Assembly: GCA_963734345.1 (NCBI GenBank) | Contig: CAVTGT010000011.1 | Span: forward strand, 505,334 to 569,333 | DNA from: an uncultured Nitrospiraceae bacterium | Lineage (GTDB): Bacteria; Nitrospirota; Nitrospiria; Nitrospirales; UBA8639 | Reading direction: 5' to 3' | Length of the DNA: 64,000 nt | Part shown: positions 9,075 through 43,193 of the stretch, piece after piece | Layout: each line of letters opens with the position of its first letter | How positions within the stretch are numbered: the stretch's first letter is position 1 | Made by a program: the position numbers and the translations under genes | Notes under the pieces: model-generated | Told to the model about the DNA's origin: nothing | Seen by the model: only the letters and a program-made list of their open reading frames with translations | The model's database searches: none

Positions 9075-10193
9075 TTAGTTATTGATGAGCGGGTTGGAAT
9101 TTAAAAGGATTTGGGAGTGTTCACCATGAGGAGAGGAAAAAACCATTCTTCCAGTATTAGTCTGCATGAAGCGAGTTACCACGACTTCGATTGCTTGGCC
9201 GACTAGTGTGGCACCATGGTCGACTACGACCATAGTGCCATCGTCCAGATGTGCAATTCCTTGGCCTTGTCCCTGGCCCTCTTTATGAATAAATACGCGA
9301 ATCGTTTCACCAGGCAACACCAAAGGCCGTAATTGGTAAGTGAGGTCGTTCACGTTGAGAGAGAGCACTCCTTGCAGTGATGCAATTTTTGCCAGATTCC
9401 AATCATTGGTCACGATTTTTGCCTCACGGTTTTTGGCTATTGCGATCAGTTGATGGTCAACCGCCGATATGGCCGGATCCCAATCATCGATCACTTGCAC
9501 GCCCACATTCGGCAGTTGTTGCAGTTGGGATAAAATTTCCAAACCGCGCTTGCCTTTGTTTCGCTTAGAAAAATGTCCGGAGTCGGCTAATGCTTGGAGT
9601 TCATGTAAAATTCCCTGAGGAACGATAAAGGGACCTTCCAAAAAGCCCGTCGCGCAGAGAGGCAGGACACGTCCATCAATAATGGCGCTGGAATCTAATA
9701 ATTTTTGAACATTGTTTGTTGGGGATGGCGAAATGTGAGGAGAGGAATCTAAAGGTAATTCGGTGATTTGGGAATGTGAAAAAGTTTGGCAGATGTGAAT
9801 GCCAACTACCATCCCAATGTAGGGACAGAGAAGAAGTACCGGAAGCATGATCCAGGGATTGAAAAAAGAATACGAAGGAAGTCCCAACCCCATTCCCAGA
9901 ATCAACAGTCCGGTTCCCGCTATCCCCACGATGATGCCAAGACTCCCGCCAACGATGGTTGAGCGGCCGCATGCCATAAGTTGGGTTTCTATCCATAGAC
10001 CCGCGCACCCAATTGCTAACCCAATTGTTCCCCATAGGATAATATCCGGGATAAGGCTTGGCCACTGGAAGGGAGCATGGCCGAGACCTGCATAGAGCCC
10101 CGCGATCATACAGAAGACGAGATAGAGCAGTTTGGACTTGTGAAGAATAGGATAGGTCGGAAATAGTGAAGAAGTGGAAAATGATGCAACCAT
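9075..10193 (-). CDS. membrane-anchored PIN and TRAM domain protein (YacL-like)
   Basis: N-terminal TM helices, a PIN-like segment (LLDSSAIIDGRV..) and a C-terminal TRAM-like segment (GETIRVFIHKEGQG..GIAHLDDGTMVVV). Confidence 0.8.
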   Translation of the reverse strand: MVASFSTSSLFPTYPILHKSKLLYLVFCMIAGLYAGLGHAPFQWPSLIPDIILWGTIGLAIGCAGLWIETQLMACGRSTIVGGSLGIIVGIAGTGLLILGMGLGLPSYSFFNPWIMLPVLLLCPYIGMVVGIHICQTFSHSQITELPLDSSPHISPSPTNNVQKLLDSSAIIDGRVLPLCATGFLEGPFIVPQGILHELQALADSGHFSKRNKGKRGLEILSQLQQLPNVGVQVIDDWDPAISAVDHQLIAIAKNREAKIVTNDWNLAKIASLQGVLSLNVNDLTYQLRPLVLPGETIRVFIHKEGQGQGQGIAHLDDGTMVVVDHGATLVGQAIEVVVTRFMQTNTGRMVFSSPHGEHSQILLNSNPLINN

Positions 10194-21932: not shown

Positions 21933-23495
21933 TTACGAAGCGTTTGAGGGAGAGGATGTTGTCGGAAATTGATACAAGGCGCCGAATTTTTGTTCAAGGT
22001 CCTGGATGAAAGGTTCAGGGGTCAGAGATTGGCCGGTTACGCGTTGTAGTAATTCAGCGGAGGTATACTGCCGTCCCCAACGATGGACCCGGTCATTCAA
22101 CCAGCCTTTCAAGGGAATCAGGTCTCCTTGACTGATGGATTGGTCGAGGCCCGGGAGATCCTTCTGTGCCTGACGGAATAACATCGCCGCATACAAATTC
22201 CCGAGCGTGTACGTGGGGAAATAGCCGAACGCGCCAAAAGACCAATGGACGTCCTGCAACACGCCTTCTGCGTCTGAGGGAGGAACGATTCCCAGGTATT
22301 CCTGAACTTTGGCATTCCAAACCTCCGGGAGATCTTCAACCTCCAGGCGTCCTTCAATCAGATCCAACTCAATTTCAAATCGCACCATGATGTGCAGATT
22401 GTACGTCAGTTCATCGGCCTCCACCCGGATGAGCGAAGGGGTCACACGGTTAATGGCGAGGTAAAACTCTTCTGCAGGCACCTCGCCAAGTTGTGCAGGA
22501 AACACCTCCTGTAGTTTCGGATAAAAATATCCCCAAAACGCGCGGGACCGGCCCACACAATTTTCCCACAAACGGGACTGGCTTTCATGAATGCCCAAAG
22601 AAAGGGCTTCGCCTAATGGCGTCCCGTAATGTTTCGCGGGCAACCCTTGTTCATACAGGCCATGGCCTCCTTCATGGATGCAACTAAAGAGACAGGAGGG
22701 GAGATCGGTTTCGAACACGCGCGAGGTCACCCGGACATCGGTGGGGTGGAATGACGTGGTGAACGGATGCGCGGACAGATCCAGTCGCCCGCGTTGAAAA
22801 TCGTATCCCATGTGCTTGAGCACGAGTCGCCCGAAGTCCACTTGTCGAGTCTTGTCATACGATTGTGTCAGGAGATGGGCTTTGGGTTGGACAGGGGACT
22901 CTCGTATACGGTCCAGCAGACGGATCAATGCGGTCCGCAACGTGGCGAAGAGCGGTCGCAATTGGGCCACCGTCGATCCCGGTTCATAGGTATCCAGTAA
23001 CGCGTTGTAGGGAGAATCTTTGTAACCCAAATATTCCGCCTCTTGCCGTTTGAGTTTCACCAGACGTTGCAGATTGGGCAGAAACAGTTGGAAATCATTG
23101 GTCTTCCTGGCTTCTGCCCACACTTGTTGGGCCAGGGAACATTCCCGCTCCAGTTGATTCACGAACGCCGAGGGCAATTTTTTCGCATGGGAAAAATCAC
23201 GCCAGGTCTCGCGAAGGAGGGCCTGGGAAGACTCGTCCAATGTCGACGTGTGATCCGGATGAAGGGTGCCGGTGGTCACATCTAAAAAAAAGGCCAGCAG
23301 AGATTCAGTTTCGGTGGAGACAAATTGATCATGCGCCAGCGTTTGCAGGGTGGCCAGTTGTTCGGCGCGAATCGCCCCGCCCCCTGGAGGCATGTACGTT
23401 TCTTGATCCCAGGAGAGCACAGCTGCGGCATCCCGCAGATGATGGATTTGTCCTAAAGTCTTTTTCAACAGATCAAGAGAAGCCACAGTGGACAT
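21933..23495 (-). CDS. carboxypeptidase Taq-type metallopeptidase (M32)
   Basis: HEGGH zinc motif plus HPF and HESQS elements. About 500 aa. Confidence 0.85.
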   Translation of the reverse strand: MSTVASLDLLKKTLGQIHHLRDAAAVLSWDQETYMPPGGGAIRAEQLATLQTLAHDQFVSTETESLLAFFLDVTTGTLHPDHTSTLDESSQALLRETWRDFSHAKKLPSAFVNQLERECSLAQQVWAEARKTNDFQLFLPNLQRLVKLKRQEAEYLGYKDSPYNALLDTYEPGSTVAQLRPLFATLRTALIRLLDRIRESPVQPKAHLLTQSYDKTRQVDFGRLVLKHMGYDFQRGRLDLSAHPFTTSFHPTDVRVTSRVFETDLPSCLFSCIHEGGHGLYEQGLPAKHYGTPLGEALSLGIHESQSRLWENCVGRSRAFWGYFYPKLQEVFPAQLGEVPAEEFYLAINRVTPSLIRVEADELTYNLHIMVRFEIELDLIEGRLEVEDLPEVWNAKVQEYLGIVPPSDAEGVLQDVHWSFGAFGYFPTYTLGNLYAAMLFRQAQKDLPGLDQSISQGDLIPLKGWLNDRVHRWGRQYTSAELLQRVTGQSLTPEPFIQDLEQKFGALYQFPTTSSPSNAS

Positions 23496-23785
23496 GAGCG
23501 GAAACCTCTAACGAGATGGTAAATAGTGAAGAGAAGAAGCGGCCTCACTGTAAGACAGCCATAAAGATTTTGGCAAGGCAGAATCGCGTGTATCATTTCG
23601 CAGGAATGCCCGGATGTCAAAATGTCTGAAGAAGTGAGTAAGAAAAAGGAATCCTTAGTTAACACTCTGAGAGTAGACCATCAGGAAATATGCCGTAGAT
23701 GCTTGCAGGCGAAGGATGAGGAGAGGGACAATAGCGGTCAATAAAAAGATGGTTGGGCGATGATGAACATTCAAGGGGGTTCACG

Positions 23786-24472
23786 ATGAAATCGTTGGTG
23801 CCACCTGAGATTGAAGCCTATGCCGAAGCGCATTCCTTACCGGAATCCGCTGTCTGTCGGCGATTGCGGGAGGAGACCTATCGCAAGATGGATTGTCCTC
23901 AGATGGTTGTCGGTTCCCTGGAAGGGGCCTTCTTAAAGGTTATGGCATTGAGTATAGGAGCCAGGCGGGTCCTGGAAATCGGAACCTTCACCGGCTACAG
24001 CGCCTTATGTTTCGCCGAAAGTCTACCTGACGACGGGCAAGTGATCACGTGTGATATTGATCCTGAATCGACTGATATGGCCAAGCGGTATTGGGCGCAG
24101 AGCCCGCATGGCACAAAGATCGATCTCCGTCTTGCTCCCGCCTTGGAAACTCTTGCGAAGTTGACGGGACTGTTTGACCTCATCTTCATCGATGCGGACA
24201 AGGCCAACTATGTGAACTATTTTCATCGGTCGTTGGAACTCATTGCCGACCGGGGCGTCATACTCATTGATAATGTCCTCTGGAATGGCGATGTGCTCAA
24301 GAGTCCCGCTCCGGATACCAATACCGCCGCCATTCAAGAATTGAATCGGGTGGTGCATGCCGAGCCGAGGGTTTCGGCAGTGCTGTTGACCATTCGCGAC
24401 GGGATCTTATTAATCAAGCCACAATCTTTCTCGGCAGCTAACCGTCAAGCGCAACAGCAGGTCCAACAATAA
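23786..24472 (+). CDS. class I SAM-dependent O-methyltransferase (caffeoyl-CoA OMT-like)
   Basis: VLEIGTFTGYSAL, DLIFIDADK, LIDNVLWNG. The ATG at 23786 has AAGGGGG upstream. Confidence 0.8.
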   Translation: MKSLVPPEIEAYAEAHSLPESAVCRRLREETYRKMDCPQMVVGSLEGAFLKVMALSIGARRVLEIGTFTGYSALCFAESLPDDGQVITCDIDPESTDMAKRYWAQSPHGTKIDLRLAPALETLAKLTGLFDLIFIDADKANYVNYFHRSLELIADRGVILIDNVLWNGDVLKSPAPDTNTAAIQELNRVVHAEPRVSAVLLTIRDGILLIKPQSFSAANRQAQQQVQQ

Positions 24473-24720
24473 AAGAAATCTCAGAGGTGCTTGTCGCTCT
24501 GACATGTTTCCCAAACTCGCCATGGCCAATCTGATGGTGATTGATGTTACCTTCGATAATCCCAACGTCCGGTACGAATGGGGTGGGGGCTATGTCTTTG
24601 GGGCTGGTGGTGTGGACCTGATTCGTGACGGTCTTGGAGGAACTCCTCTGATCTCTCTACATCAAGAACAGCGAATCCGACCCAGCAGCAATCAAACAGG
24701 ACAAGATAAATCAGGCAGAC

Positions 24721-25342
24721 ATGGGTAAAGCGAACCTCGACCCTGCAAGACACCAGATTGAGAAGTCTGAAGCCCGGTGGCAACCCCGGCAGGTGTTGCT
24801 CTTTAGCGGTCACATGATCGACGCGCCGGATAGAAGGACTCCGCGCTTTCCTGCGGTCAAAGAATCCATCGCCGCACAAAAAATCTCCGAAGCATTGGAT
24901 ACAATTGGGCGCGGGTCCCGAAGACCTTGCACTCACGCAAGGCGCCTGTGGAGGTGACCTCCTGTTTACAGAGGCCTGTCAGCAACGCAACGTGACTATG
25001 CAGTGGATGCAGCCGTTCCATGAGCCGGAGTTTATTCAAAAGTCCGTCATCTGTAGGGGCGAAGCCTGGCGCAATCGGTATTTGGCTGCCAAAGCCAAGC
25101 TCACGACCGCAATCCGTTCCGCGCCGGAGCAACTTGGCTCACTTCCCGAAGGGATAGATCCCTATGAACGGTGCAATCTATGGTTGCTTCACACCGCATT
25201 GGCGTATGGTGTGGAGAAGGTGCACTTCATTTGTTTGTGGGATGGAGGCGGAGGTGACGGCCCTGGCGGCACGGCGCACATGTATGAGGAAGTAAAAGGC
25301 AGATCAGGAAACGTCACGTGGATCGACACTCGGACTCTTTAA
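24721..25342 (+). pseudogene. SLOG/LOG-like Rossmann protein, frameshifted near 24900-24912
   Basis: Two overlapping ORFs (24721-24957, 24905-25342) join into one protein of about 205 aa. Motifs are LLFSGHMIDAPDR, TQGACGGDLLF and GDGPGGTAHMYEE (GGxGT..E-like). Confidence 0.5.
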
Positions 25343-25425
25343 CCGACGTTCCTCATGTCATCTCAGCGGAAAGCTGTGAGGCTGAAAAAACTCTTGCTTA
25401 ACTGTACGAATACTCCGGAGGCGCC

Positions 25426-26567
25426 ATGCATGAGAAATTGCTAGCCCGAATGCAATCTCCCGGCCCGAAGAAAATCCTGGCTCTCGACGGTGGTGGGATC
25501 CGGGGGATGATCACTATAGAGGTATTGGCTGAAATTGAAGAGCCTCCTGCGCCGGAAGCTTGACCGTGCGTGACGATTTCCGGTTGGCTGACTACTTTGA
25601 TTTCGTCGCCGGCACCAGTACGGGTGCCATCATCGCGGCCTGTATCTCGGTCGGCATGACGGTGTCCGAGATCCGCGACTTCTACCTCAGCAGTGGCAAA
25701 GAGATGTTTGATAAGGCGTCCTTGCTCAGACGTTTTCGCCATACCTATGAGGATGAAAAACTTGCGTTGAAGTTGCAAACAGTGTTTGGAAAAGACGCCA
25801 CGTTGGGAAGCGACAAGCTCAAAACGGTATTGATGATGGTCATGCGGAATGCCACGACCGACTCGCCATGGCCGGTTTCGAATAACCCCTTGGCAAAATA
25901 CAACCAGCGATTTCGTGACGACGGCTGCGCGCGCGACAACTGCAATCTCGATATTCCGCTGTGGCAACTGATCCGGGCGAGCACGGCGGCCCCGGTCTAT
26001 TTTCCACCGGAAGTCGTGAAGGTCGGCACCCGGGAATTCGTCTTTGTTGACGGCGGAATTACTATGTATAACAACCCGGCCTTCCAGGCGTTTCTAATGG
26101 CCACGCTCAACCCCTATAAAATGGAGTGGGCGGTCGGGGAAGACAAGATGCTGGTGGTGTCGATCGGGACCGGAACCAGTCCGCAGGCGAATGCCGATCT
26201 GGATCCCAATGAAATGAATCTGATGTACAACGCGTCTTCCATTCCTTCAGCCCTGATGAGTGCGGCGCTCAACGAGCAGGATTTGCTCTGTCGGGTGTTC
26301 GGCCAGTGTCTTGCCGGTGAAAAACTGGATAGCGAAATCGGAGACTTAAAGGCAGTGAAGGGACCGGTTGGTCCCGACAAATTGTTCACCTATCTCAGAT
26401 ATAACGCAGAACTGACTCTCGAGGGATTAAAGAATTTAGGACTTCCGGGGATCAAGCCGGAACATGTGCAACAACTTGATTCGGTGAAGCACATTACCGA
26501 GTTACAGCAGGTAGGACAGGCAGTCGCCAAGAGCGTGAAGCCTGAACACTTCGCGCGATTTGTGTAA
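25426..26567 (+). pseudogene. patatin-like phospholipase, one or two frameshifts at 25540-25565
   Basis: The N-terminal frame (25426-25563) gives KILALDGGGIRGMITIEVLAEIEE. The rest (from 25560) carries GTSTG and FVDGGITMYNNP. A third frame reads SLLRRKLDRA between them. Confidence 0.8.
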
Positions 26568-26637
26568 TCCTACAATAGACTCTGGCCTCGCGTTGAAAAA
26601 TTGTGCAACGGTCGACCCGCCCTGACAGGATCGGGAG

Positions 26638-27440
26638 CTAGCGCGCCTGTCGGATCGTCTTGTCTCCTGCCGCCGGCTTGGCAAACTCGAACTTCAATTC
26701 ATTGACTCGTGCCAGATAGGTTCTTACGTCGTGGTCGCCGCAGCGTTGGTGGCGGGTCAGCCGGAATTTGCGTGCGGCATAGGCGCGGCCGGCTCCGGCT
26801 CCACAGAGATGAATCACGGCGGCCAGATTTTGCTTTCGCCGGAGCGGCACCTTGCCCATTCGTTGCGGTCCTATGATCTGCATAACTTGCCGATCGAGCA
26901 GCGCTGCCGTCAACTCGATGGCATGGCTCGGCAGGATGCGGGTATAGAGACTGTTGAACCAGCAGGATTGCAGGTCGTGCCACGGGCCGTCCTCGACTAC
27001 GACGTGGTCGTGGATGCAATAGCGGGTCGCCTCATCTGAAGGTCCCGTCGGTGATCTGGTACATGCCAACCGCCGTCGACGCCGGTTGATACAGTCCCAA
27101 GGGATTCCAACGTCAGCTCCCATCGCCAGTAGGTCCGTGCCACAGGATTGCCTCCGCCCTCGACCTGCGCCAGCGCGGCAAGAAACTCAGGTGTGATGAC
27201 CGCGGTCGCATGCTCGCGAAAAAGCGATTCATATTCCCTCCACGTTTCGACAGGGCTCTTGTTGAGTGAGCGGTCCAAGGGAAAGAGGATCTCGGTTGGC
27301 TTATGGAATGTATGAAAGGCCCAATTGACGCCAAGCCACAGGAGAAGGAAGAGGGCAGAGAGCACGGCACCACGAACGATCGGCGGTAAGGCCAGCACCG
27401 CTCTCATGACCGCACGGAGCACACGCCAACCTTCGCGCAC
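26638..27440 (-). pseudogene. membrane-anchored lytic transglycosylase (SLT domain), two frameshifts
   Basis: LAQVEGGGNPVARTYWRW is in one frame, RWNPLGLYQPASTAVGMYQITDGTF in a second, and DEATRYCIHDH.. in a third. The shifts lie near 27105-27120 and 27030-27042. Confidence 0.7.
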
Positions 27441-27766
27441 GAAACGCCAGAGCGTGCTGAGCGTTATTACGACGTCTGTGCCTCTTTCGTCGGCGAGGAT
27501 GTTTGGGAGTCTGTCGATTGGGTCTCAACGCCATAGGTTCACTATAAACCGAAAAAAAGGGGAGGGAAGGCCTGGTTGGTCTTAATGCTCAGATACCGCG
27601 CAACTTCGAGAAACGGGTAAGCTTGGAAGGGTCATCTAGAAGAATTAGGGGGTGTTTGTGAAGACAAATCGAGAACCAGGAAGCGGAAACATTCCGACTT
27701 CCCCGATCAAATCATCCGTCCGCGTGGAAACCGGCATCCAAACTATTGCTAGCTCGTGCGGTCTAG

Positions 27767-28532
27767 CTACTTACTACGGCTGCCCAGGAAAGTGACGACG
27801 TGACCTCGTAGAGCGGCCACGAAGCGCTGAAAATTTAAGTCTTCAGCCGGCTGCGTGATTTTGGTTTTTCGTGAGTTCGTGGCCATCATGAAACAGGCTG
27901 AGGTATAGAGTCGTTCTAGCACCAAGCGGCGACACAGCAGCTCGTAGCGCTTGCTATAGGATACTCCTCTATACCGTCGGAGGGCTGCTGTATCTTTGAG
28001 ATGAGCTTCTCCACGAAATTCAGGGTCTACCTGGAAGTACGGCTCCTTGTTGCCGACAGGGGTTTTGACGTTGTCGCGATCTTCCAATAAAAACAAGTAG
28101 CCAAGAAAAGGGGTGAGGAGACTGACCAAAGCGGCCTTCTCGGAATGCTGTCCAAATATCCTTGGCACTGCCCACCGCTTCTTCCGAACGGTTGTTCACA
28201 TTGTTTCCGATCGATTTGCCGGCTTGGGATTTTAACTCCATCGCCAAGACCAACGCACCGTCTGAGACGACAATGAGATCCCATTTTTTCGTGGCTCTGA
28301 AATAACCTGGCAGCTCAAGCGCGGTTCTTGTGCGGACATCGACCTTCTTCAATCCGGCTTCGCATAGGATGTCCGAAACTAAGACCTCCAGAGCACCCAT
28401 CTGGGTGCCTCCTGTGACCTCACCTCGCGTTCCGGCATCAATTTTTCCAGATTTGACCTGCTTTTCTTTATTTCGTCTTCGGGCGTCCCAGTAGCTTTGG
28501 ACGGCGGCTTGCAGTCTCTTATCAATGTTCAA
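27767..28532 (-). pseudogene. type II restriction endonuclease (XhoI/PaeR7I-like by recollection), frameshifted
   Basis: TTG start at 28532 with GGAGG upstream, overlapping the MTase stop by 11 nt. The frame breaks at the A4G4 run at 28106-28113 (..GQSPHPF|LGYLFLLEDRD..). Confidence 0.6.
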
Positions 28533-30231
28533 GCGCCGCCTCCAGAGTGCGAACGTTAATCCCATACAGATCCAAAGCCACTTGGGTTGCGCGGGGCCTG
28601 TCACGATGACGGAAGGCGTCTCTCAGTTCATGGGACTGCATCTTGGACAAGGTCGTAGGGGCAGGGACTCGAATCCGGCGCAGATACTGTGCTTGGAAGC
28701 GCAAATAGCCGCCTCGCATGCGGACTCCATATGATTCGATGAAAAACTGTCCGACTTTCGACATCAGTAGGCCTCCGAGTACTTCCAGGTCCCACTCGTC
28801 CGACTGAATGAAGTACAGATTGTGGTGCGGGTACGTTTCACCACGATCTAAGACCGGCTTGAGCGTGTTCTTAATATCCGGGATGTAGAGTTTGTGTGTG
28901 TCGGTGAGGGCGTGGTTGACGCGATCAATTGTCTTGTACCACTTGCCGGCATTCTTCTCAACCGTGTGGCGTTTCCTCAGGGCTGCCGCATGTCGCTCGT
29001 AGTAGGCTTTCAACTTCGGATAGGTTTTCAGATTGACGAGTCCGTCGTGGTTCCATGGATTAACCAGATAGTGCCCGGACCATCGCACCGTTCCTCCCGC
29101 CACGTCTTTCGCGAGTGCGAGCTTCAGGAGGCGAGACGGCTCCACAAGGTCCGCATCGGTCGTGATGTAGACACGATCGTTCCCGGTGGCGACACCTATT
29201 CCCACCTTGGCATTCATCTCGAGAGGAGGAAACTGATCTTCCAGTCGTCGGAGGAGTGCCAACTGTTCGGGTGAATGGCAGGGCCAGGGGTCTGCGCCTT
29301 TGAACCACGTTTTTACTACTGCCCTATGAATACTCTGAGGCAATATGTTGCGGCCGTTTGTCTGGAGGGTCGTGACCAATTGTCTTGGCTGAATCTTCTC
29401 AGCTTCCTGACCGGCACTTGCCACAATGGTCGACTGCTGTTTTTTGTGTCGAATTACTGTAATTGCCGGATAGGCGTCCACTTCATCGTCGAAGGCGTTG
29501 GCGTTGTGCATACTCAGGAGCATTTCAACACTGTATGCTGAGGTAATAAGCTGCCGCAGTTCTGCCCCATATTGGTTCCGCATCCATCGATCAGCGCAGA
29601 TAAATGCGCATACACCGCCAGTTTTAAGCTGCCGCAGTGCGGCCTCAAAAAAGGCCACATAGAGATCAGCTCGACCGCGCATCGTCGGATACGCATTGCG
29701 ATAGACTGAGGCCGTTTCTTCTGGAATATCTTCAAGGCGTACGTATGGAGGGTTCCCGACAATGAAATCAGCCTGTCTGCTACCGGTATCGAAAAGGTAA
29801 TCCCGGTTTAATACCCACGCTTCGGCCAGTTGCTTGGCTAGCGGGCGCCCTACGCCACGATTCATCAGGATGTTCTGGACAAAAACTCGTGCACGAGCAG
29901 CACTTTTCTCATCCAGTTCGTAGGCGAGTAAGGAATTTTGACATTCTGAAAACGATCGACCGAGTTTTCGACAGGACTCCACTAGGCGCTCGACCATAAG
30001 ACCGAGAAATGCGCCATTACCAGCCGCTGGTTCGACTGCCAGGGCATCTACCAGGTTTTTATCCGAGCAGTAGCCGCTCAGATCAAGTAGTAGTTCAACG
30101 ACCCAACGTTTTGTGTATACGACGCCTTTCGGCTCGACTACCGCAAAATGCATAGGACAGGGAAAAGGTGCGATCAGCTGGAGTTGAATGCCTCTGGTTC
30201 CACCTGATCGACTAATTTGGTTGTTTGCCAC
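28522..30231 (-). CDS. N6-adenine DNA methyltransferase, gamma class (TaqI/Eco57I-like), intact
   Basis: Motif I VEPAAGNGAFL and motif IV GNPPYV. 569 aa with no interruption. Confidence 0.85.
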   Translation of the reverse strand: MANNQISRSGGTRGIQLQLIAPFPCPMHFAVVEPKGVVYTKRWVVELLLDLSGYCSDKNLVDALAVEPAAGNGAFLGLMVERLVESCRKLGRSFSECQNSLLAYELDEKSAARARVFVQNILMNRGVGRPLAKQLAEAWVLNRDYLFDTGSRQADFIVGNPPYVRLEDIPEETASVYRNAYPTMRGRADLYVAFFEAALRQLKTGGVCAFICADRWMRNQYGAELRQLITSAYSVEMLLSMHNANAFDDEVDAYPAITVIRHKKQQSTIVASAGQEAEKIQPRQLVTTLQTNGRNILPQSIHRAVVKTWFKGADPWPCHSPEQLALLRRLEDQFPPLEMNAKVGIGVATGNDRVYITTDADLVEPSRLLKLALAKDVAGGTVRWSGHYLVNPWNHDGLVNLKTYPKLKAYYERHAAALRKRHTVEKNAGKWYKTIDRVNHALTDTHKLYIPDIKNTLKPVLDRGETYPHHNLYFIQSDEWDLEVLGGLLMSKVGQFFIESYGVRMRGGYLRFQAQYLRRIRVPAPTTLSKMQSHELRDAFRHRDRPRATQVALDLYGINVRTLEAALEH

Positions 30232-30961: not shown

Positions 30962-31211
30962 GGCCTCCCCCTGTGTTCGCTCCATTATCGTTTCGCGTTT
31001 TCGAAATGTCTCCCCTCAATCAATTCTTGAAACTGAGCTGTTTTGATCAGATTAGCAATCCTTCATGGGCGTAGAATTGAGTTGGGCTCATATCGCGCCA
31101 TCAAGTCCTCGCCGATTGATCGCGCCAATAGAGTGTCCTGTTGTGACCGTCAGAAAAGAACCGATGGAAATTCAGTTGATGAATTCCAAATTGTAACAAG
31201 GAGGTACTTCC

Positions 31212-32210: not shown

Positions 32211-34170
32211 TCACCGAACGACGGGCAGTTCAATCTGGGATGGTTGATTTGGTGTGTGCCAGATTTCCCATGTTGGTGCCGGGCCATCTAATGCCTGGAA
32301 ATGATCTTTGTCGGCTCCCGCCAGGGCAATCCGGATGCGATGACCCTGTTTGAATTGATAGGACGTAGGAAGTAACTCGACTATTAGTGGCACCACTTCA
32401 CCGGGGATAAGCGGGGCGGCATCAGCACGGCGGAAGGTGTGAATGGGCAGAGCACGCGATGGGTTTTCGATGGCCTCGGTCGATTGTCTGCGCCGATGGA
32501 TGGCCCGCAACTCGCCTTCCGTGACGTAATGCACGTCTCCTTCAGGGGTGACATCTTCCAAATACACAAACAGGGTCGTATCCGGCGTGGTGGAAGAAAG
32601 ATAGACAGTGGCCACCGGATGTCCTGTGACTTCGATGTGCTTCTGATAGCGGCTCCGAGGTATACACCAACAACTCCTGATCTCGTTCTTTCCGGTCGGG
32701 GTAGGGATCTTTCAGAGAAATTCCCACCAACGTGTCCCACCGGGTTTGCCTGCCGGTTCCTGTGTTTGGATTGACCTGGTACCGATCGGGGATGTACTCC
32801 GCCGGGGGCGGCTTCATTCCTAACAGGCCTTCTTGTTGGAAATACATCGAACGGGGAGAAGACTCAGGTGGCCAGCGAGTCGAGGTTTTCCATTGTTCCT
32901 CGCCCATTGTGTAATAGCGGATCGGTGGATCGTTCTGGCTGCCGTTGGCCACGCCTTTCAGGTGAAGATCGAAAAATTTGAGGAGTTCCGCCGCATGGTC
33001 GAATTGTGCCGGCCCAAGCGCATAGGGACTGATCCGGCGTTTCCCGCCATGATCCCATGGCCCGAGCATGAGGCGGTGAGTCGGCTGCTGATAGTGGAGA
33101 TAGCGATGGATGGCAGCCAATGGATACCCCCCGTCGAACCACCCGCTATAGCTGTAGATGGCTGCGCCTGACTTGGCAATCTCGTCCGCATAGGTTTGGG
33201 GGCTGAGGACATCGATATTGGCGGCCTGCCGTGATGGAGGAGGATCATCCCGAAAATCAATCCCGGAGGCTTCCCGATAGGGACTCCAATTGGTCTCGTG
33301 TTCCTGTAAGGCGAGGGCCAAAAGGTGCTGACCGGTATCCCCATCGACCGGCCGCACTCCACGCACGAAGAGATTGGCGGTCCATCCGGCGTGCGGTAAT
33401 CGGTTGTGGTCAAGCCGATGCGTAATCGCACTCCAGGTTTCTGTAAACCAGTTGAGATGGATGCCACCCGGAAAGATAATTTCGGAATAGAGATCAAATC
33501 CTGAATACATCGGGGCGATTGCTTTGACGGCCGGATGCTGATTGACCAACAACATTTCCGCCGTTCCACCGCTATAGGAAATACCCATGGCGCCGACATT
33601 TCCGTTTGACCAGGGTTGGGCAATAATCCAGTCCACAATTTCAGCCCCGTCTTGAATTTCCTTCGGGGAATAGGCGATCGGGCGTGTTCCGAATGAGGCG
33701 CCGGAGCCACGCACATCCACATCCACCCACGCATAGCCCTGTTGAAGAAACCGTTTCGCATACGATCCCATGAGCCCCCGTGGTCCATCCTCCTTGAAGA
33801 GGGAGACCAGCCATCGATATTCGATCGCCCGCCAATACCGGGTTTGATGAAGGATCGTGGGAATCGTTTGGCCTGCCTTCAGTCCGTCGGGGAGATAGAG
33901 ATCCACCGCAATCTTGACCCCGTCCCGCATCGTGAGATACTGCGAAGTACGGTGAAATTTCCCGTCGGGCTCAACAACGCTGATAGCCGAAGATGGCGGA
34001 CTGGCCGCCGCCGGGTCAGACTGCTCAACAGTATTTGGCGCACAACCCGTGAAGAAAGGGAGTGCCAGCCCGAGGAGCATGAGGAAAGCCCATAAACGGA
34101 AAAGTCCCGGCGTGGGGAGAGGGGAGAAACGGCTGGCAGTTCTAAAACGGAGATTGGTTCGTCTGAACAT
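32211..34170 (-). pseudogene. CocE/NonD-family (X-Pro dipeptidyl-peptidase-like) alpha/beta hydrolase, frameshifted near 32633-32650
   Basis: ORFs 32542-34170 and 32211-32615 join as ..TSEPLSE|HIEVTGHPVATVYLSSTTPD... Contains GISYSGG (GxSxG). Confidence 0.75.
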
Positions 34171-35219: not shown

Positions 35220-36145
35220 ATGGCCTCATCCAATAAAAAAGTCATTTACGCGGCGTTAATCGGCAATAGCCTAATTGCCTTCACCAAATTTGCGGCTTCG
35301 GCATTGACGGGAAGTTCCGTGATGTTGGCCGAAGGCATTCATTCTCTGGTGGACACGGGCAATCAAGGGCTCTTGCTCTATGGACTTCATCGTGCCAAAC
35401 GACCAGCCGATGAGCGGTATCCCTTCGGGTATGGCAAGGAGATCTATTTTTGGAGTTTTGCTGTGGCCATTCTGGTCTTTGCCCTCGGTGCCGGAATTTC
35501 CTTGTATGAAGGCGTGTTGCACATTATTAAGCCGGAGCCGATTACCAATCCCATGGTCAACTATGTGGTGTTGACTCTCTCCCTCATATTTGAGGGTGGG
35601 GCCTGGTACATGGCTTTCCGGGAATTTTCCGGAGGGCCAAGGGAAAGTGGTCGTATTTGGAGGCGGTCCAACGGGGAAAAGATCCGACAATTTTTATGGT
35701 GCTCTTCGAAGATTCGGCTGCGGTGCTGGGGTTGGCGGTGGCCTTTATTGGCATTTGGCTGGGACAGGTCACCGGTATTGTCTATTTTGACGGCATCGCG
35801 ACCTGTATCATCGGATTGATATTGGCCGCGATCGCGATGTGGCTGGCATTTGAAACAAAAGGGTTGTTAATCGGGGAAAGCGCCAATAGGGAAGTGGTCC
35901 AGAGCATTCGCGACATGGCCAGACAACTTCCCGGGGTCATGCATGTGAATGAAGTGCTTACCATGCACATGGGGCCGGAATTTATCCTGGTGAATCTGAG
36001 TGTGGAATTTGAAGATCGAGTCACGTCCGAAGAGTTGGAGCGCTGTGTGGCCAAATTGGATAAGGATATTAAAGTGAAGCATCCTCTCGTGAAACGGATC
36101 TTTGTGGAAGCCGAAGCCCGGCGTGTCTCCAAGCTTCCGGAATAA
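35220..36145 (+). pseudogene. cation diffusion facilitator (CDF) transporter, frameshifted at the T-run 35625-35628
   Basis: ORFs 35220-35819 and 35657-36145 join as ..MAFREF|RRAKGKWSYLEAVQRGKDPTIFMVLFEDSAA... Contains the HSLVDTGNQ motif. One extra T would restore the frame. Confidence 0.8.
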
Positions 36146-36214: not shown

Positions 36215-37797
36215 ATGGGCGAAACTCGTGTTGATTTGCTTCATCTGTTGGAAGATTTGCGTGATGCCTATCCGGGCGCGCTCGAAGAAACCATTCTCAC
36301 GGAAATCGTGGCCAATTCTTTGGATTCCGGAGCCAGCCGGATCATGATGGAGGCAAATCCATCAGAAGGCACGCTGATGGTGAGGGATAACGGATCGGGC
36401 ATGCAGCGGAAGGATTTGGCCCGCTATCATGACATTGCCTCCAGTACCAAACGACGTGGCCAAGGCATCGGCTTTGCCGGCGTTGGCATCAAACTCGGGT
36501 TGTTGGTGTGTCGGGAGGTGCTGACGGAGACTCAGCGAGGTCAGACTCATGTCTCGACGACGTGGCATTTATCGTCGCGGCACCGGGCTCCCTGGAAATG
36601 GGTGCCTCCAATAGGCATGGTGATCCAGCAGGGAACCGCAGTCCGTCTTAGCCTTCAAAATGTTCTCTCCCCACTGTTGGATCAGGGGTTTTTAGGCGGA
36701 GTTGTCTCCAGACATTTTCAACCGTTGCTGGATCCCACGTTTTCCACCATCCTGCATTCCCACTATTCGAAAGGCGTGGTCTTTGAAATTAATGGAATAG
36801 AGCTGACCTCTCAACGGTTTGAGGCTCCGGTCCACGCGCCTTTGCAAATTCGTCTGTTGCGAAAACGGAAACCCTCGGCGGTGGGATATCTGGTGCGAAC
36901 CGAACATCCTCTGCCCGATGATCTTCAAGGATTAGCCATCAGTACTTTCGGCAAAGTTATCAAGTCAGGGTGGGATTGGTTGGGTGTCACCCCACAGGCT
37001 CGTGAATGCATTTCCGGCCTGATTGAAGTTCCGGATCTTGCCGCAAGTCTGACGCTGAATAAAGGAGATTTTATTCGAGTGGGGGCACGAGGCGCGACGT
37101 ATTTGGCCTACCGGAAGGCTATCCAGGAAGCCGTTCAACGGCACCTTTCAGAATGGGGAGTGGGGGATAGTCCGGTCGAAGAAACGCCGCCCCGCCAAAT
37201 CCGTCCGCTGGAGCGGGACCTTGAGCGAGTACTGGAAGACCTCTCCGATCTCTTTCCGCTCCTGGGTTCCTTGGTGGAACATCGGAAGGGTGGGCAGAAA
37301 CGGTTGCCGTTGGGCATGCCGGGATCGGTTCAAGACCTGCGTGCCGTCATGACCACTGGAGAGGCGACCCGGAAGTCGGACGGTGAAGAAGAATTAGTCG
37401 TCCACGCCCCGGCTGAGGACAGGGGTGAGGAGACATCGGATGAACCTGGCGAGCCGGAAGAAGAGGCGTCGGTGGTGTCTGATCTTTTGTTGCCGGACCG
37501 TGGCAGTCCCAGGCGTCCGGCCCGTTTTGGGCTCGGTATTCAATTTGAAGATCGGGAAGGTGATCAGGAAATTGGACGGTTGGTGGAATCAACCGTATGG
37601 GTGAATCGCGTTCATCCAGCCTATCAACGAGCGGTGGCGACGCGGTCGGTGGGCTATCATATCGCCCTGGCGGTGGGATTGGCCTTGGCGCCGCTGGCCG
37701 TGGAGCCTGCTCAAACGAGCATGCCTTTCTCACCGCCTTTCTCTCCTGTTGGGGGGAGGCCAGCCTTCCTAAAAAATCAAAGAAACGCAAGCGGTAA
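36215..37797 (+). pseudogene. GHKL (HATPase_c_3 / MORC-Hsp90-like) ATPase, frameshifted 28 codons before its stop
   Basis: N box EIVANSLDSGA, G1 box RDNGSGM, G2 box GQGIGFAGVGIK. The frame breaks at the A-run 37713-37715. The alternative frame gives ..EHAFLTAFLSCWGEASLPKKSKKRKR*, ending at 37797. Confidence 0.7.
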
Positions 37798-37968
37798 AAG
37801 ATTGTCGGTGGTAAGTGGCGGGATAAAGGGTTGTTTAATCCTGTTCTGTATTCTCGATTTCCATTACCACCGGACAATGATCAGAAAGGTGTCGATAGGC
37901 GAGAGGATACTCACCACGAATGCGTTGACAGGTGGCGACGGCACAGTATCCAGTGACGACTGTATCAG
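37723..37968. repeat. copy 1 of a ~245-bp diverged direct repeat (GHKL 3' end + spacer + remnant of the EEP nuclease 3' end)
   Basis: On the minus strand, 37845-37968 translates to ..VVTGYCAVATCQRIRGEYPLAYRHLSDHCPVVMEIENTEQD*. The intact gene reads ..TVTGYCAVAGCQRIRGKYPLAYRQLSDHCPVVLEIENTDKD*. Confidence 0.8.
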
Positions 37969-37980
37969 CAATGTGCGGAC

Positions 37981-38670
37981 ATGGGAAACGACGGTTGTCA
38001 GCTTGCCATGGGTCAGCTCAACGAGTTCGGCGAGGGCGTACCGAAGAACGAGAAACAAGCGGCAAGCTGGTATCGAAAATCTGCGGATCAAGGCAATGCC
38101 ATCGGACAAAAAACGCTTGGACTTCTTTATGAACTCGGAAAGGGCGTGCCGGAAAACTGGACCGAAGCGGCTCGGCTATACGCCAAGGGCGCGGAGAAAT
38201 TTCAAGATTCGGCGTTTGCCTTAGGGCGCATGTATGAATTTGACATGGCCGTTCCGCAAAACCGCGCGGTCGCGATCCAATGGTTTAAGAAAGCCGCCGA
38301 TATGGGACATCCCAAGGGAGCCTATTGGCCCCGTTGGTTGAACGATTACAGCAACTGCATCGGCTTTCGAGACCAACAGGAGCAGAACGCGATCCGGGGC
38401 CTTCGCTGTCCGGCCGATCCGGTCGGCGTCATCTTTCGCAACAGCCGCGAGCGGGCGGCCTACATAGAGCAGAAGGCCAAGGAGTTTGACGCGATCGAAG
38501 CGCAGGCGGCTGCGGCCCAGGCGGCGAGGGTGGGGCGCAAAATAACTATGAATGTAACAGCGCCGGAGGAAATTGGACGGCGGATAGGCAAGCAACATTT
38601 GGAGGCCGCTGCAATTAGCCGAAGCGTGAAGCGGAAGCGCTTGTCTGTAGTGGGCCGCGTGTCTTCGTAG
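37981..38670 (+). CDS. Sel1-repeat (SLR) protein, probably 5'-truncated
   Basis: Repeats of the form ..GVPKNEKQAASWYRKSADQGNAIGQ.. with no signal peptide. It begins immediately after the repeat junction. Confidence 0.6.
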   Translation: MGNDGCQLAMGQLNEFGEGVPKNEKQAASWYRKSADQGNAIGQKTLGLLYELGKGVPENWTEAARLYAKGAEKFQDSAFALGRMYEFDMAVPQNRAVAIQWFKKAADMGHPKGAYWPRWLNDYSNCIGFRDQQEQNAIRGLRCPADPVGVIFRNSRERAAYIEQKAKEFDAIEAQAAAAQAARVGRKITMNVTAPEEIGRRIGKQHLEAAAISRSVKRKRLSVVGRVSS

Positions 38671-42736: not shown

Positions 42737-43150
42737 AATCTGGTCTTCCCCCGGTTTCACGGACAGGTTAAAGAAGACTTTTGAGAGTATTGCTCCATAA
42801 AATTTCTTGGGGCCAGTCCCTGAGTACAGGAGTGGCTCCGTCGGTGGTTATAAAACCGCTCGATGTAATCAAACACATCAGCTCGGGCTTTCGCCCGAGT
42901 TCCGTACTGCCGTCGGTGAACCCGTTCGCGTTTCAATAAGCCAAAGAAACTCTCCGCCACCGCATTGTCATAACAGTTCCCCACGCCGCTCATGCTACTC
43001 ACAATCCCATGGGCCTGCAGGAAGGCTTGAAACTCCTGTGCGGTATACTGTGTGCCTCGGTCCGAATGGAGGATCACCGTCTCCGGACTCCGTCGTTGCC
43101 ACACGGCCATCGCCCAATCAGCGGTCTGGGAAATGACAGACATCCGCCTC
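42737..43150 (-). mobile_element. IS3-family transposase OrfB fragment, 5'-truncated, no OrfA
   Basis: ..HSDRGTQYTAQEF..SMSGVGNCYDNAVAESFFGLLKRE..YIERFYNHRRSHS.. (DDE/rve core). Homology starts near 43145 and the stop is at 42757. Confidence 0.75.
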
Positions 43151-43193
43151 CTCGAACAATTTAGGGTGTCTACAATGAATAAACAAAAATGGC

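What the first reader, a model, noticed from the sequence alone, without database searches (positions are those of the whole stretch)
24721..26567. SLOG/LOG-like sensor candidate plus patatin phospholipase: a possible degraded two-gene defence or abortive-infection module
Two co-oriented genes are separated by 83 nt. The first, about 205 aa once its frameshift is repaired, has a Rossmann-like pattern with LLFSGHMIDAPDR, TQGACGGDLLF and GDGPGGTAHMYEE. The last motif resembles the GGxGTxxE nucleotide-binding signature of LOG/SLOG domains. The second is a clear patatin-like phospholipase (DGGGIRG oxyanion hole, GTSTG nucleophile, DGG Asp). SLOG domains sense nucleotide-derived alarm signals (Thoeris ThsA), and patatin is the membrane-destroying effector of CBASS (CapV). 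A free-standing SLOG-like gene paired with a patatin gene is not a named defence system that I know of. The pair lies in an island beside an R-M system, a typical defence-island context. No signal-generating enzyme (cyclase or TIR) is present in the window. Both genes carry frameshifts, so this copy is probably inactive.
Basis: partly seen in the sequence, partly recalled or inferred. Interest (0 to 1): 0.7.

Follow-up and report, generated by a model that had tools for sequence, protein, structure and literature searches.

The report
Truncated SLOG gene beside patatin lipase
The two genes are a nucleotide-binding (SLOG-fold) protein and a membrane-lipid-cutting patatin enzyme that recur together across many bacterial phyla as parts of a predicted anti-phage signalling system, but this copy is a cut-down remnant of a much larger gene, and its frameshifts may only be assembly errors.

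Summary
Gene A (24721-25342) and a patatin gene (25426-26567) are co-oriented and 83 nt apart. Deleting three single inserted bases (24902, 25542, 25571) restores ORFs of 206 and 379 aa, matching an intact syntenic locus (L001, 97.7% nt identity).

Gene A matches no Pfam, NCBIfam or PADLOC model. A confident AlphaFold model (pLDDT 89.9) matches YpsA best, then LOG-like proteins, DprA and ShosA, so it has a SLOG fold.

It is not primarily a free-standing gene. In most genomes the domain is the C-terminus of a ~660-aa protein: a deoxyribohydrolase-like N-domain, then TPR-S, then SLOG. The window keeps a 74-codon relic of the N-domain (24504-24728) after a ~1.46-kb deletion.

The patatin link holds in both directions:
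- 20 of 72 informative SLOG loci have this patatin directly downstream, and two proteins fuse the two.
- 30 of 60 informative patatin loci carry this SLOG. About a dozen more carry an N-domain-TPR-S gene, an LSDAT SLOG gene and/or a TIR gene instead.

This places the pair in the predicted TIR/DRHyd-TPR-S/SLOG systems, which are related to type VIII Thoeris. The stand-alone SLOG stub is under purifying selection (dN/dS 0.11-0.22), even where no patatin is present. Whether this copy is really inactive is unresolved.

The parts
24504..24728 (+). 74-codon ORF that is a degenerate relic of the N-terminal deoxyribohydrolase-like domain of the ancestral ~660-aa protein (residues ~47-127, including the ...NPNV.YE.G motif)
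   Evidence: blastp against the full-length proteins of L009 and L067 gives 38-41% identity over 68 aa, E about 1e-11 in a two-sequence search. tblastn of the L009 protein hits window 24468-24713. The same ORF is present in L001.
24721..25342 (+). Stand-alone SLOG-fold gene (206 aa after repair), the 3' remnant of the multidomain gene
   Evidence: ORFs. Repair. 2589 homologues. AlphaFold pLDDT 89.9. Foldseek top hit is YpsA 2nx2, followed by LOG-like proteins, DprA and ShosA. No Pfam, NCBIfam or PADLOC hit.
24902..24902 (+). Single inserted C that frameshifts the SLOG gene
   Evidence: Window versus L001 alignment. Deleting it restores a 206-aa ORF whose sequence at the junction (ALDKLGAGPEDL) equals that of L001.
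25426..26567 (+). CapV-like patatin phospholipase gene (379 aa after repair)
   Evidence: Pfam Patatin 95.5 bits. NCBIfam CBASS_lipase 126.9 bits, below its 200-bit cut-off. PADLOC phospholipase effector PDLC00758, E 1.4e-46. The repaired ORF is 375/379 identical to L001.
25542..25542 (+). First single-base insertion (G) in the patatin gene
25571..25571 (+). Second single-base insertion (T) in the patatin gene, 29 nt after the first
23753..24472 (+). Class I O-methyltransferase (Methyltransf_3). This core gene marks the left edge of the variable island and is not part of the module.
   Evidence: Pfam annotation of the L001 orthologue. The same gene precedes the SLOG gene in 29 Nitrospira loci but not in other phyla.
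27767..30231 (-). Type II restriction-modification pair next to the module: an XhoI-family endonuclease (frameshifted at 28116) and an intact 569-aa Eco57I/N6_Mtase methylase

Best explanation
The pair is a cut-down copy of a recurrent two-gene conflict module.

The full form has two genes:
- a ~660-aa protein made of a nucleoside-deoxyribosyltransferase/DNPH1-like ('DRHyd') N-domain, a TPR-S repeat domain and a C-terminal YpsA-like SLOG domain;
- a CapV-like patatin phospholipase encoded immediately downstream.

This module belongs to the NAD+/ADP-ribose-derived nucleotide-signalling systems built around DRHyd-TPR-S proteins. These are the 'Tpr core' of Burroughs & Aravind. Experimentally studied relatives are BcTir/BcTpr and the type VIII Thoeris effector ThsI, which responds to canonical cADPR.

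Inferred working: infection produces a nucleotide signal, the constant TPR-S + SLOG module binds it, and the variable effector is released. The effector can be the DRHyd domain in the same protein, or patatin, SLATT or TIR encoded alongside or fused. Patatin then hydrolyses membrane phospholipids and aborts the infection.

In the window's lineage a ~1.46-kb deletion removed most of the DRHyd domain and all of TPR-S. What remains is a 74-codon relic plus a 206-codon SLOG gene, which has since evolved under purifying selection as a stand-alone protein. Here it still sits in front of its patatin partner.

Shown: fold, architecture, deletion, co-occurrence and selection. Inferred: ligand, direction of signalling and defence function.
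For: SLOG fold:
- The AlphaFold model has pLDDT 89.9 and pTM 0.88.
- Foldseek gives YpsA at E 3.6e-6 (TM 0.56/0.63), then Moco-carrier/LOG-like proteins, DprA, ShosA, TM1055 and YgdH.

Architecture:
- In 83 loci the domain is mostly the C-terminal ~205 aa of proteins of 650-690 aa.
- Pfam finds TPR-S in front of it, E 5e-15.
- A profile of the N-domain finds only DNPH1/Rcl and nucleoside 2-deoxyribosyltransferase chains in the PDB. The matches are weak (E 0.15-1.1) and align on the YELG glutamate motif.
- The part in front of TPR-S-SLOG varies: the DRHyd-like N-domain alone, patatin in its place (L060, P0124), or a further domain ahead of it (ParA-like, AAA_35 + TIR, SLATT). A sigma-54 AAA+ module can follow SLOG. 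This is the pattern expected of a constant sensor module joined to variable outputs.

Deletion: the relic and the breakpoints are shown.

Co-occurrence:
- 20 of 72 informative SLOG loci have patatin directly downstream and 31 of 72 have it nearby.
- In the reciprocal survey, 21 of 60 informative patatin loci have this SLOG directly upstream and 30 of 60 have it somewhere in the locus.
- About 12 further patatin loci instead carry an N-domain-TPR-S gene, an LSDAT_prok SLOG gene and/or a TIR gene, sometimes with SLATT.

Selection: dN/dS is 0.11-0.22, with dS up to 0.84, among eight stand-alone orthologues.

Literature:
- Assemblies of the Tpr core with TIR, YspA, patatin or LSDAT are listed from the Burroughs & Aravind 2020 data set, and BcTir/BcTpr defends against phage (10.1101/2023.05.26.542521).
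- ThsI, a CMP-hydrolase-like domain plus TPR, is a cADPR-activated effector (10.64898/2025.12.03.692087).
Against: - No curated SLOG model matches. The best is one member hitting YAcAr at E 0.031, and the profile finds nothing in PDB sequences.
- No TIR or other signal generator lies in the window, and many two-gene loci have none, so the source of the signal is unknown.
- Six of the eight stand-alone SLOG orthologues have no patatin in 16 kb. The stub therefore works without patatin, and the two window genes may no longer cooperate.
- The strictly conserved polar residues (H31, D34, R42, D79, R150, N152) and the 58-85% identity across phyla would also fit an enzyme rather than a passive sensor.
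- Nothing here tests defence, ligand binding or lipase activation.
Confidence: 0.6

Rival explanations
1. The signalling runs the other way. The SLOG domain, alone or with the DRHyd domain, is the enzyme that makes or converts a nucleotide signal. The CapV-like patatin is the direct receptor and effector. This would be a CBASS-like 'enzyme + CapV' pair with no TIR or cyclase, and the truncated stand-alone SLOG would be a minimal signal generator or signal-degrading enzyme.
For: - The patatin resembles the CBASS lipase over ~280 residues (PADLOC E 1.4e-46, NCBIfam CBASS_lipase 126.9 bits). CapV is activated directly by a nucleotide (established knowledge).
- The other frequent partner is a SLATT protein. 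SLATT effectors appear to respond to cADPR in type VII Thoeris.
- Most two-gene loci have no other candidate signal generator.
- Polar residues H31, D34, R42, D79, R150 and N152 are conserved in at least 95% of 79 aligned sequences (35-61% identity to P0001).
- The preprint reports that the BcTpr N-domain itself makes a cADPR isomer.
- Aravind's group predicts that some SLOG domains generate ADPR-derived signals (PMC9503650).
Against: - TPR-S-SLOG sits N-terminal to a sigma-54 AAA+ activator module in P0228, the place normally taken by a sensory input.
- The one experimentally characterised SLOG domain of a defence system, in ThsA, is a sensor.
- The LOG catalytic motif PGGxGTxxE is not conserved across the wider family. 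E190 falls below 90%.
Confidence: 0.2
2. In this genome the two genes are no longer a functional unit. The SLOG stub has taken on a role of its own, for example nucleotide housekeeping, buffering signals of other systems, or regulation. The patatin is an independent leftover in an integration hotspot.
For: - Stand-alone SLOG orthologues at the same chromosomal site are under purifying selection without any patatin in L002, L004-L007 and L033.
- The site between Peptidase_M32/Methyltransf_3 and the downstream core genes carries different cargo in different Nitrospira: SLATT, caspase + CHAT-TPR-S, TIR, DUF4062-TPR, restriction-modification.
- SLOG and patatin identities are not correlated across loci. 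L067 has SLOG at 63% but patatin at 86%; L009 has 76% and 53%. This indicates cassette shuffling.
Against: - The SLOG-patatin junction is collinear with the closest full-length locus, L011, at 88.7% nt identity over 2.3 kb. The pair was therefore inherited together, not assembled by chance.
- Stand-alone SLOG genes are also followed directly by this patatin in 5 of 20 informative loci.
Confidence: 0.15
3. The copy is not degraded. The three frameshifts are assembly errors, and both genes are intact in the organism.
For: - All three lesions are single-base insertions. Removing them restores full-length ORFs with no stop codons or other damage.
- The patatin has 12 nucleotide and 5 amino-acid differences from L001. 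By my own rough estimate this gives dN/dS of about 0.2, so constraint is still visible.
- Frameshifts also hit housekeeping-type genes: the Peptidase_S15 gene, the start of ApbE and a cation-efflux gene at ~35.7 kb, whose two halves match consecutive parts of one Pfam model.
- The frameshifted 78-aa product is on record from a single 966,713-bp contig. That length is typical of long-read metagenome assemblies.
- Two MAG loci with 'MFD' isolate names in the comparison set (L006, L011) show the same kind of split genes.
Against: - The insertions are not in homopolymers.
- Within the 16.6 kb that can be compared, about 8.7 kb of other genes (Peptidase_M32, the methylase, Methyltransf_3, FUR and others) have no frameshift at all, whereas the island genes collect most of them.
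- A broken endonuclease next to an intact methylase is a classic genuine decay pattern.
Confidence: 0.55

Closest known systems
DRHyd-TPR-S ('Tpr core') conflict systems predicted by Burroughs & Aravind 2020, of which the BcTir/BcTpr operon of Bacillus cereus was tested (bioRxiv 10.1101/2023.05.26.542521)
   Same: Relatives of the window gene have the same core: a deoxyribohydrolase-like N-domain followed by TPR-S. They also have the same reported companions: TIR, YspA-type SLOG, LSDAT SLOG, patatin and caspase.
   Different: - Here the SLOG is a distinct family with no Pfam model, fused to the C-terminus of the core.
- Most loci are TIR-less two-gene units with patatin.
- The window copy has lost the core itself and keeps only the SLOG domain plus a relic.
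- I could not read the 2020 paper, so I do not know how far it describes this exact fusion.
Type VIII Thoeris (TIR + ThsI), and type VII (TIR + SLATT ThsH) (bioRxiv 10.64898/2025.12.03.692087)
   Same: ThsI is a CMP-hydrolase-like domain plus a TPR domain. It is activated by canonical cADPR. SLATT genes also accompany the SLOG genes studied here.
   Different: - No TIR gene is in the window or in most patatin-type loci.
- ThsI is not described with a C-terminal SLOG or a patatin partner; 'patatin' does not occur in that text.
- Homology of the N-domain to ThsI was not tested directly, because no ThsI sequence was available.
Type I Thoeris effector ThsA (SIR2-SLOG)
   Same: A SLOG domain in an anti-phage system, where it senses a TIR-made ADPR-derived nucleotide.
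   Different: In ThsA the SLOG is fused to a SIR2 NADase and needs the ThsB TIR protein. Here the SLOG is free-standing or fused to DRHyd-TPR-S, and the effector is a separate patatin.
CBASS phospholipase CapV
   Same: Patatin fold with the GGGxRG, GxSxG and DGG motifs. The closest curated models are the CBASS lipase models.
   Different: It scores 126.9 bits against a 200-bit equivalog cut-off. No CD-NTase gene is adjacent. Its habitual neighbours are SLOG, TPR-S and TIR genes.
YpsA of Bacillus subtilis (DUF1273, PDB 2NX2)
   Same: It is the best structural match, covering 202 aligned columns at TM 0.56-0.63. A GxD motif follows strand 2.
   Different: Only 18% identity and no Pfam DUF1273 hit. 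YpsA is a cell-division regulator of Firmicutes and is not linked to TPR-S or patatin.

Membership tests
SLOG superfamily (Rossmannoid; YpsA, DprA, LOG, LSDAT, ThsA C-domain) | Three-layer alpha/beta fold with a parallel sheet, closest to known SLOG structures | tested here: met
   The AlphaFold model has pLDDT 89.9, with alternating strands and helices. The five Foldseek matches with E < 1e-3 are all SLOG proteins: YpsA, Moco-carrier/LOG-like, DprA (two chains) and ShosA.
SLOG superfamily (Rossmannoid; YpsA, DprA, LOG, LSDAT, ThsA C-domain) | Conserved glycine-rich nucleotide-binding loops, a GxD/E motif after strand 2, and a GG(x)T...E element after strand 4 | tested here: inconclusive
   G77-G78-D79 and G182-G183 are conserved in at least 92% of 79 aligned sequences. 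The loop after strand 1 is S-G-H..D rather than glycine-rich. E190 is invariant only among close relatives.
SLOG superfamily (Rossmannoid; YpsA, DprA, LOG, LSDAT, ThsA C-domain) | Match to a curated sequence model of a SLOG family | tested here: not met
   No Pfam, NCBIfam or PADLOC hit for the protein. Of 30 members scanned, one hits YAcAr at E 0.031. A UniRef record names one homologue 'DUF1273 family protein'.
SLOG superfamily (Rossmannoid; YpsA, DprA, LOG, LSDAT, ThsA C-domain) | Binds or processes a nucleotide or nucleotide derivative | not testable with these tools
   Needs binding or enzyme assays.
LOG family (cytokinin riboside 5'-monophosphate phosphoribohydrolase-like) | PGGxGTxxE and GGGxGxMG motifs, and a match to the Pfam LOG model | tested here: not met
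   No Pfam hit. The sequence reads GPGGTAHMYEE, so the spacing differs, and SGHMID takes the place of the first motif.
Patatin-like phospholipase (PF01734) | Oxyanion hole GGGxRG, nucleophile elbow GxSxG, catalytic Asp in DGG, and a score above the Pfam cut-off | tested here: met
   DGGGIRG, GTSTG and VDGG are invariant in 15 homologues. Pfam score is 95.5 bits against a cut-off of 27.7.
CBASS (CD-NTase + CapV) | CapV equivalog score, and a CD-NTase gene in the operon | tested here: not met
   NF041079 scores 126.9 bits against a cut-off of 200. The flanking genes are a methyltransferase, the SLOG gene, a 297-aa protein of unknown function and a restriction-modification pair. A dedicated CD-NTase search of the whole window was not run.
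Thoeris (TIR-based signalling systems) | A TIR-domain gene in the same operon as the effector | tested here: not met
   tblastn of two TIR proteins from related loci against the 64-kb window found nothing. TIR genes occur in only about 13 of the 83 related SLOG loci and in some patatin loci.
Thoeris (TIR-based signalling systems) | ThsI-type effector: nucleotide-hydrolase (DRHyd / 'CMP hydrolase') domain plus TPR | tested here: inconclusive
   In relatives, TPR-S scores E 5e-15. The N-domain gives only weak hits, all to DNPH1 or nucleoside deoxyribosyltransferase (E 0.15-1.1), and a weak hit to a PADLOC TIR model (E 2.4e-5). In the window only a ~70-90 aa relic remains. No ThsI sequence was available for direct comparison.
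DRHyd-TPR-S 'Tpr core' systems (Burroughs & Aravind 2020) | A TPR-S domain protein as the hub, with TIR, SLOG, patatin, caspase or SLATT companions | tested here: met
   This is met for the family. It is not met for the window copy itself, where TPR-S is deleted.
Anti-phage defence system (any) | Protects against phage when expressed | not testable with these tools
   Only context supports it: the restriction-modification neighbour and the defence-type domains found in related loci.

The most novel reading that the evidence does not exclude
A widespread immune module with neither TIR nor cyclase, in which this uncurated SLOG family itself makes or converts the nucleotide signal that directly switches on a CapV-like patatin. 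The DRHyd and TPR-S domains would act as trigger and regulator. The Nitrospira stand-alone stubs, kept under selection after losing both sensor and effector domains, would then be minimal signal generators or signal-quenching enzymes acting on other systems elsewhere in the genome.
Probability: 0.2. Interest if true: 0.7.

Novelty: new variant of a known kind. Interest (0 to 1): 0.45.

Why it matters
Systems built on the DRHyd-TPR-S hub are only now being tested experimentally (BcTir/BcTpr, type VIII Thoeris). The form found here is a hub fused to a very strongly conserved SLOG domain and paired with a dedicated CapV-like patatin, usually without any TIR gene. It occurs across about ten phyla, has no curated model, is not picked up by PADLOC 2.0, and has not been tested. 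If it defends against phage, it raises two questions. Where does the signal come from when no TIR is present? And is the SLOG domain a sensor or an enzyme? The Nitrospira stubs are a natural experiment: the SLOG domain alone has been kept under purifying selection after the rest of the protein was lost. For the window itself the finding is modest, a truncated and possibly broken copy.

Tried and rejected
Searches that found nothing:
- Pfam, NCBIfam and PADLOC scans of the repaired SLOG protein gave no hit.
- A profile of 30 homologues against all PDB sequences gave no hit at E <= 10.
- IMG/VR viral contigs hold no relative of the SLOG family, so there is no support for a phage-borne version.
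- The full-length protein against PDB sequences hit only designed TPR proteins.
- The promoter and terminator scan of 24300-26800 found nothing above the shuffled expectation and no terminator between the two genes.
- The GC profile shows no compositional break at the island.

Attempts that failed:
- Single-sequence AlphaFold of a 664-aa full-length homologue gave pLDDT 40.8, which is unusable.
- An exact-product look-up of the frameshifted 78-aa ORF, meant to identify the source assembly, returned 'not on record'. The cluster look-up gave only 'NCBI, ENA, one contig of 966,713 bp'.
- Burroughs & Aravind 2020 (J Bacteriol) is not held under its DOI or under the PMC id I recalled for it. Its content is cited only through papers that use it.

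Ideas considered and rejected:
- A functional link between the SLOG gene and the upstream O-methyltransferase. That adjacency exists only in Nitrospira, where it marks a conserved chromosomal hotspot.
- Membership in the LOG enzyme family. The motifs and the Pfam model are not matched.
Full report
1. What is in the sequence

Two co-oriented genes lie at 24721-25342 and 25426-26567, 83 nt apart. Each is broken into overlapping ORFs.

A syntenic metagenomic contig, L001, is 97.7% identical over 16.6 kb and carries both genes intact, at 206 aa and 379 aa. The alignment shows that the window has one extra base in the first gene (C at 24902) and two in the second (G at 25542, T at 25571). Deleting these three bases restores full-length ORFs. 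The repaired patatin is 375/379 identical to L001. The SLOG protein is about 97% identical to its L001 counterpart.

The restriction-modification neighbour is real: an XhoI-family endonuclease, itself frameshifted at 28116, and an intact 569-aa N6-methylase.

2. What the first protein is

It matches no Pfam, NCBIfam or PADLOC model, and a profile of 30 homologues finds nothing among PDB sequences.

It belongs to a large family:
- 2589 proteins in the word-indexed search;
- 2295 clusters at 50% identity in the exhaustive search.

An AlphaFold model built on 30 homologues is confident (pLDDT 89.9, pTM 0.88). Its best structural match is B. subtilis YpsA (2nx2, E 3.6e-6, TM 0.56/0.63). The next matches are the Moco-carrier/LOG-like protein, DprA and ShosA, and TM1055 and YgdH also appear. 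All of these are SLOG-superfamily proteins.

So the SLOG guess holds at the level of fold. Membership of the LOG family proper does not.

Across 79 aligned sequences (35-61% identity to P0001) the best-conserved positions are G30-H31, D34, R42-F43-P44, G77-G78-D79, W116, R150, N152, W173 and G182-G183.

3. It is a stub of a larger gene

I fetched 80 loci from GTDB species genomes plus three from other look-ups. In most of them the domain forms the last ~205 residues of a 650-690-aa protein.

The full-length protein has three parts:
- TPR-S lies directly in front of the SLOG domain (PF20308, E 5e-15).
- The N-terminal ~200 residues form a Rossmannoid domain with an invariant ...NPNVWYELGVRHALR motif.
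- A profile of that N-domain finds only weak PDB matches (E 0.15-1.1). All of them are DNPH1/Rcl or nucleoside 2-deoxyribosyltransferase, aligned on the catalytic YELG glutamate.

That superfamily is what Aravind's group calls DrHyd (PMC9503650). It is my inference, not a test, that the 'CMP hydrolase' domain of ThsI belongs to the same superfamily.

The window has no such region. The 74-codon ORF at 24504-24728, just upstream of the SLOG start and overlapping it by 8 nt, aligns to residues ~59-125 of the full-length N-domain at 38-41% identity. tblastn confirms this: residues 39-127 hit window 24444-24713 and residues 446-658 hit 24691-25339.

Against the closest full-length locus (L011, 88.7% nt identity on both sides) the window lacks about 1.46 kb. 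The 'free-standing SLOG gene' is therefore secondary. A deletion removed most of the N-domain and all of TPR-S.

The stub is nevertheless a working gene in this clade. Eight orthologous 206-codon genes from different Nitrospira lineages give dN/dS of 0.11-0.22 at dS up to 0.84. Only the window and L001 still show the relic. A second type of ~196 aa, usually preceded by a DUF4231/SLATT gene, occurs in other Nitrospira. Methylotuvimicrobium has a stand-alone SLOG gene followed by a separate gene for the N-domain, which I presume also carries TPR repeats.

4. Is the patatin a real partner?

Yes, in both directions.

Starting from the SLOG gene (72 loci with enough downstream sequence):
- 20 have this patatin subfamily directly downstream on the same strand.
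- 31 have it within 8 kb.
- By form, that is 15 of 48 for the fused form and 5 of 20 for the stand-alone form.
- In L060 (915 aa) and P0124 (889 aa) the patatin domain replaces the N-domain in one polypeptide, giving patatin-TPR-S-SLOG.

Starting from the patatin, I fetched 80 metagenome loci chosen only by patatin similarity. Of the 60 with at least 800 nt upstream:
- 21 have the SLOG domain directly upstream, almost always as N-domain-TPR-S-SLOG.
- 30 have it somewhere in the locus.
- About a dozen of the rest instead carry a separate N-domain-TPR-S gene (TPR-S E 3.9e-23), an LSDAT_prok SLOG gene (E 6e-50) and/or a TIR gene, sometimes with a SLATT gene.

So this patatin subfamily is a habitual effector of DRHyd-TPR-S + SLOG systems, whichever SLOG clade is used.

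The patatin itself is CapV-like but scores below the CapV equivalog cut-off.

In the SLOG loci the other recurrent neighbours are all conflict-system domains:
- SLATT;
- caspase with a CHAT-TPR-S protein;
- TIR;
- nSTAND1 NTPase;
- DUF4062-TPR.

5. Architectural logic and mechanism

TPR-S-SLOG is the constant part. What surrounds it varies:
- the DRHyd-like N-domain alone in front, which is the commonest form;
- patatin in place of that N-domain (L060, P0124);
- a further domain ahead of it: ParA-like, AAA_35 + TIR, or SLATT;
- a sigma-54 AAA+ module or a TIR domain after SLOG.

A constant module joined to interchangeable outputs is what one expects of a sensor or regulatory unit.

The literature places the hub in NAD+/ADPR-derived signalling:
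- The BcTir/BcTpr operon defends against phage. The preprint also lists TIR, YspA, patatin and LSDAT assemblies from Burroughs & Aravind's data set.
- ThsI of type VIII Thoeris, and the SLATT effector of type VII, respond to canonical cADPR made by a TIR protein.

My best account is as follows. An infection-induced nucleotide is read by TPR-S/SLOG. That releases the DRHyd domain in the same protein and the patatin encoded next to it, and the patatin destroys membrane lipid.

What is shown is the fold, the architecture, the deletion, the co-occurrence and the selection. The ligand, the direction of signalling and the defence function are inferred.

The main rival reverses the flow. In that reading SLOG and/or DRHyd make the signal, and the CapV-like patatin receives it directly. 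It is attractive because most two-gene loci have no TIR and because the conserved residues look catalytic.

6. The window copy

Without the N-domain and TPR-S, the stub plus patatin can work as a module only if SLOG alone is enough to sense or make the signal. Six of the eight stand-alone orthologues have no patatin within 16 kb. The stub therefore has a patatin-independent role, and cooperation of the two window genes is not assured.

Whether the frameshifts are real cannot be settled from the sequence.

Evidence for real decay:
- Within the 16.6 kb that can be compared, about 8.7 kb of other genes have no frameshift. The island genes (SLOG, patatin, the 297-aa gene, the endonuclease and others) collect most of them.
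- A broken endonuclease beside an intact methylase is a familiar decay pattern.

Evidence for assembly artefact:
- All lesions in the two genes are single-base insertions in otherwise clean ORFs. The patatin still shows constraint: 12 nucleotide and 5 amino-acid differences from L001, which by my own rough estimate gives dN/dS of about 0.2.
- Peptidase_S15, the start of ApbE and a cation-efflux gene at ~35.7 kb are frameshifted as well.
- The frameshifted 78-aa product is on record from one 967-kb contig.
- Two MAG loci with 'MFD' isolate names in my comparison set (L006, L011) show similar split genes.

I put assembly artefact slightly ahead, at about 0.55.

7. Novelty and score

The kind is known from comparative genomics, and experiments on it have begun. 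Three things are not described in what I could read:
- this SLOG family, which has no curated model and yet is 58-85% identical between phyla;
- its fusion to the hub with a dedicated patatin in mostly TIR-less two-gene units;
- the selected stand-alone stubs in Nitrospira.

I could not read the 2020 paper itself, so the fusion may already be described there.

I rate the finding a new variant of a known kind, with interest 0.45. It is a worthwhile family to test, but this window holds only a truncated and possibly broken copy.

Noticed in passing
window 27767-28604 (-) and 28522-30231 (-): The XhoI-family restriction endonuclease is split by a single-base insertion at 28116, while the adjacent 569-aa Eco57I-type N6-methylase is intact. 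This is either an orphan-methylase state or an assembly error. This pair is also the most diverged stretch relative to L001 (3.4-5.1% mismatches against ~1% elsewhere).
   Followed up: partly
window 35220-36145 (+): A cation-efflux (CDF) transporter gene is split into two overlapping ORFs that match consecutive parts of one Pfam model (positions 2-126 and 139-193, plus ZT_dimer). This is a frameshift outside the defence island, and it bears on whether the window's frameshifts are assembly errors.
   Followed up: partly
window 32211-34170 (-), 18149, 31005-31062, 31748: More frameshifting differences from L001: in Peptidase_S15 (insertion at 32634), 21 nt into ApbE, two deletions in the dnstrm_HI1420-type gene, and an 11-nt insertion in a 238-aa gene.
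   Followed up: partly
window 21933-24472 and loci L001-L041: In Nitrospira, the site downstream of Peptidase_M32 and the O-methyltransferase is a conserved hotspot with changing cargo: full-length or truncated SLOG genes, SLATT, patatin, caspase + CHAT-TPR-S, TIR, DUF4062-TPR, nSTAND1, restriction-modification.
   Followed up: partly
L028:10244-14230 and about 16 other loci: A caspase (Peptidase_C14) gene followed by a ~1000-aa CHAT protein with its own TPR-S domain often lies downstream of the SLOG gene. This looks like a second TPR-S-based module in the same islands.
   Followed up: no
P0228 (1212 aa, from the representative search): TPR-S and the SLOG domain sit N-terminal to a sigma-54-interaction AAA+ module. 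This suggests a transcription activator controlled by the same sensor pair.
   Followed up: no
window 36215-38670 (+): A 669-aa protein with an N-terminal HATPase_c_3 (GHKL ATPase) domain overlaps a Sel1-repeat ORF on the same strand by 240 nt. It may be another frameshifted or conflict-related gene.
   Followed up: no
window 42757-43275 (-) and 9075-10193 (-): A truncated IS integrase (rve) fragment and a PIN-TRAM protein. These are further signs of a variable, mobile-element-rich region.
   Followed up: no
window 26638-27534 (-): The orthologue of a conserved 297-aa Nitrospira protein with no Pfam match is heavily disrupted here. It has several single-base indels and 4.7% mismatches relative to L001.
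   Followed up: no
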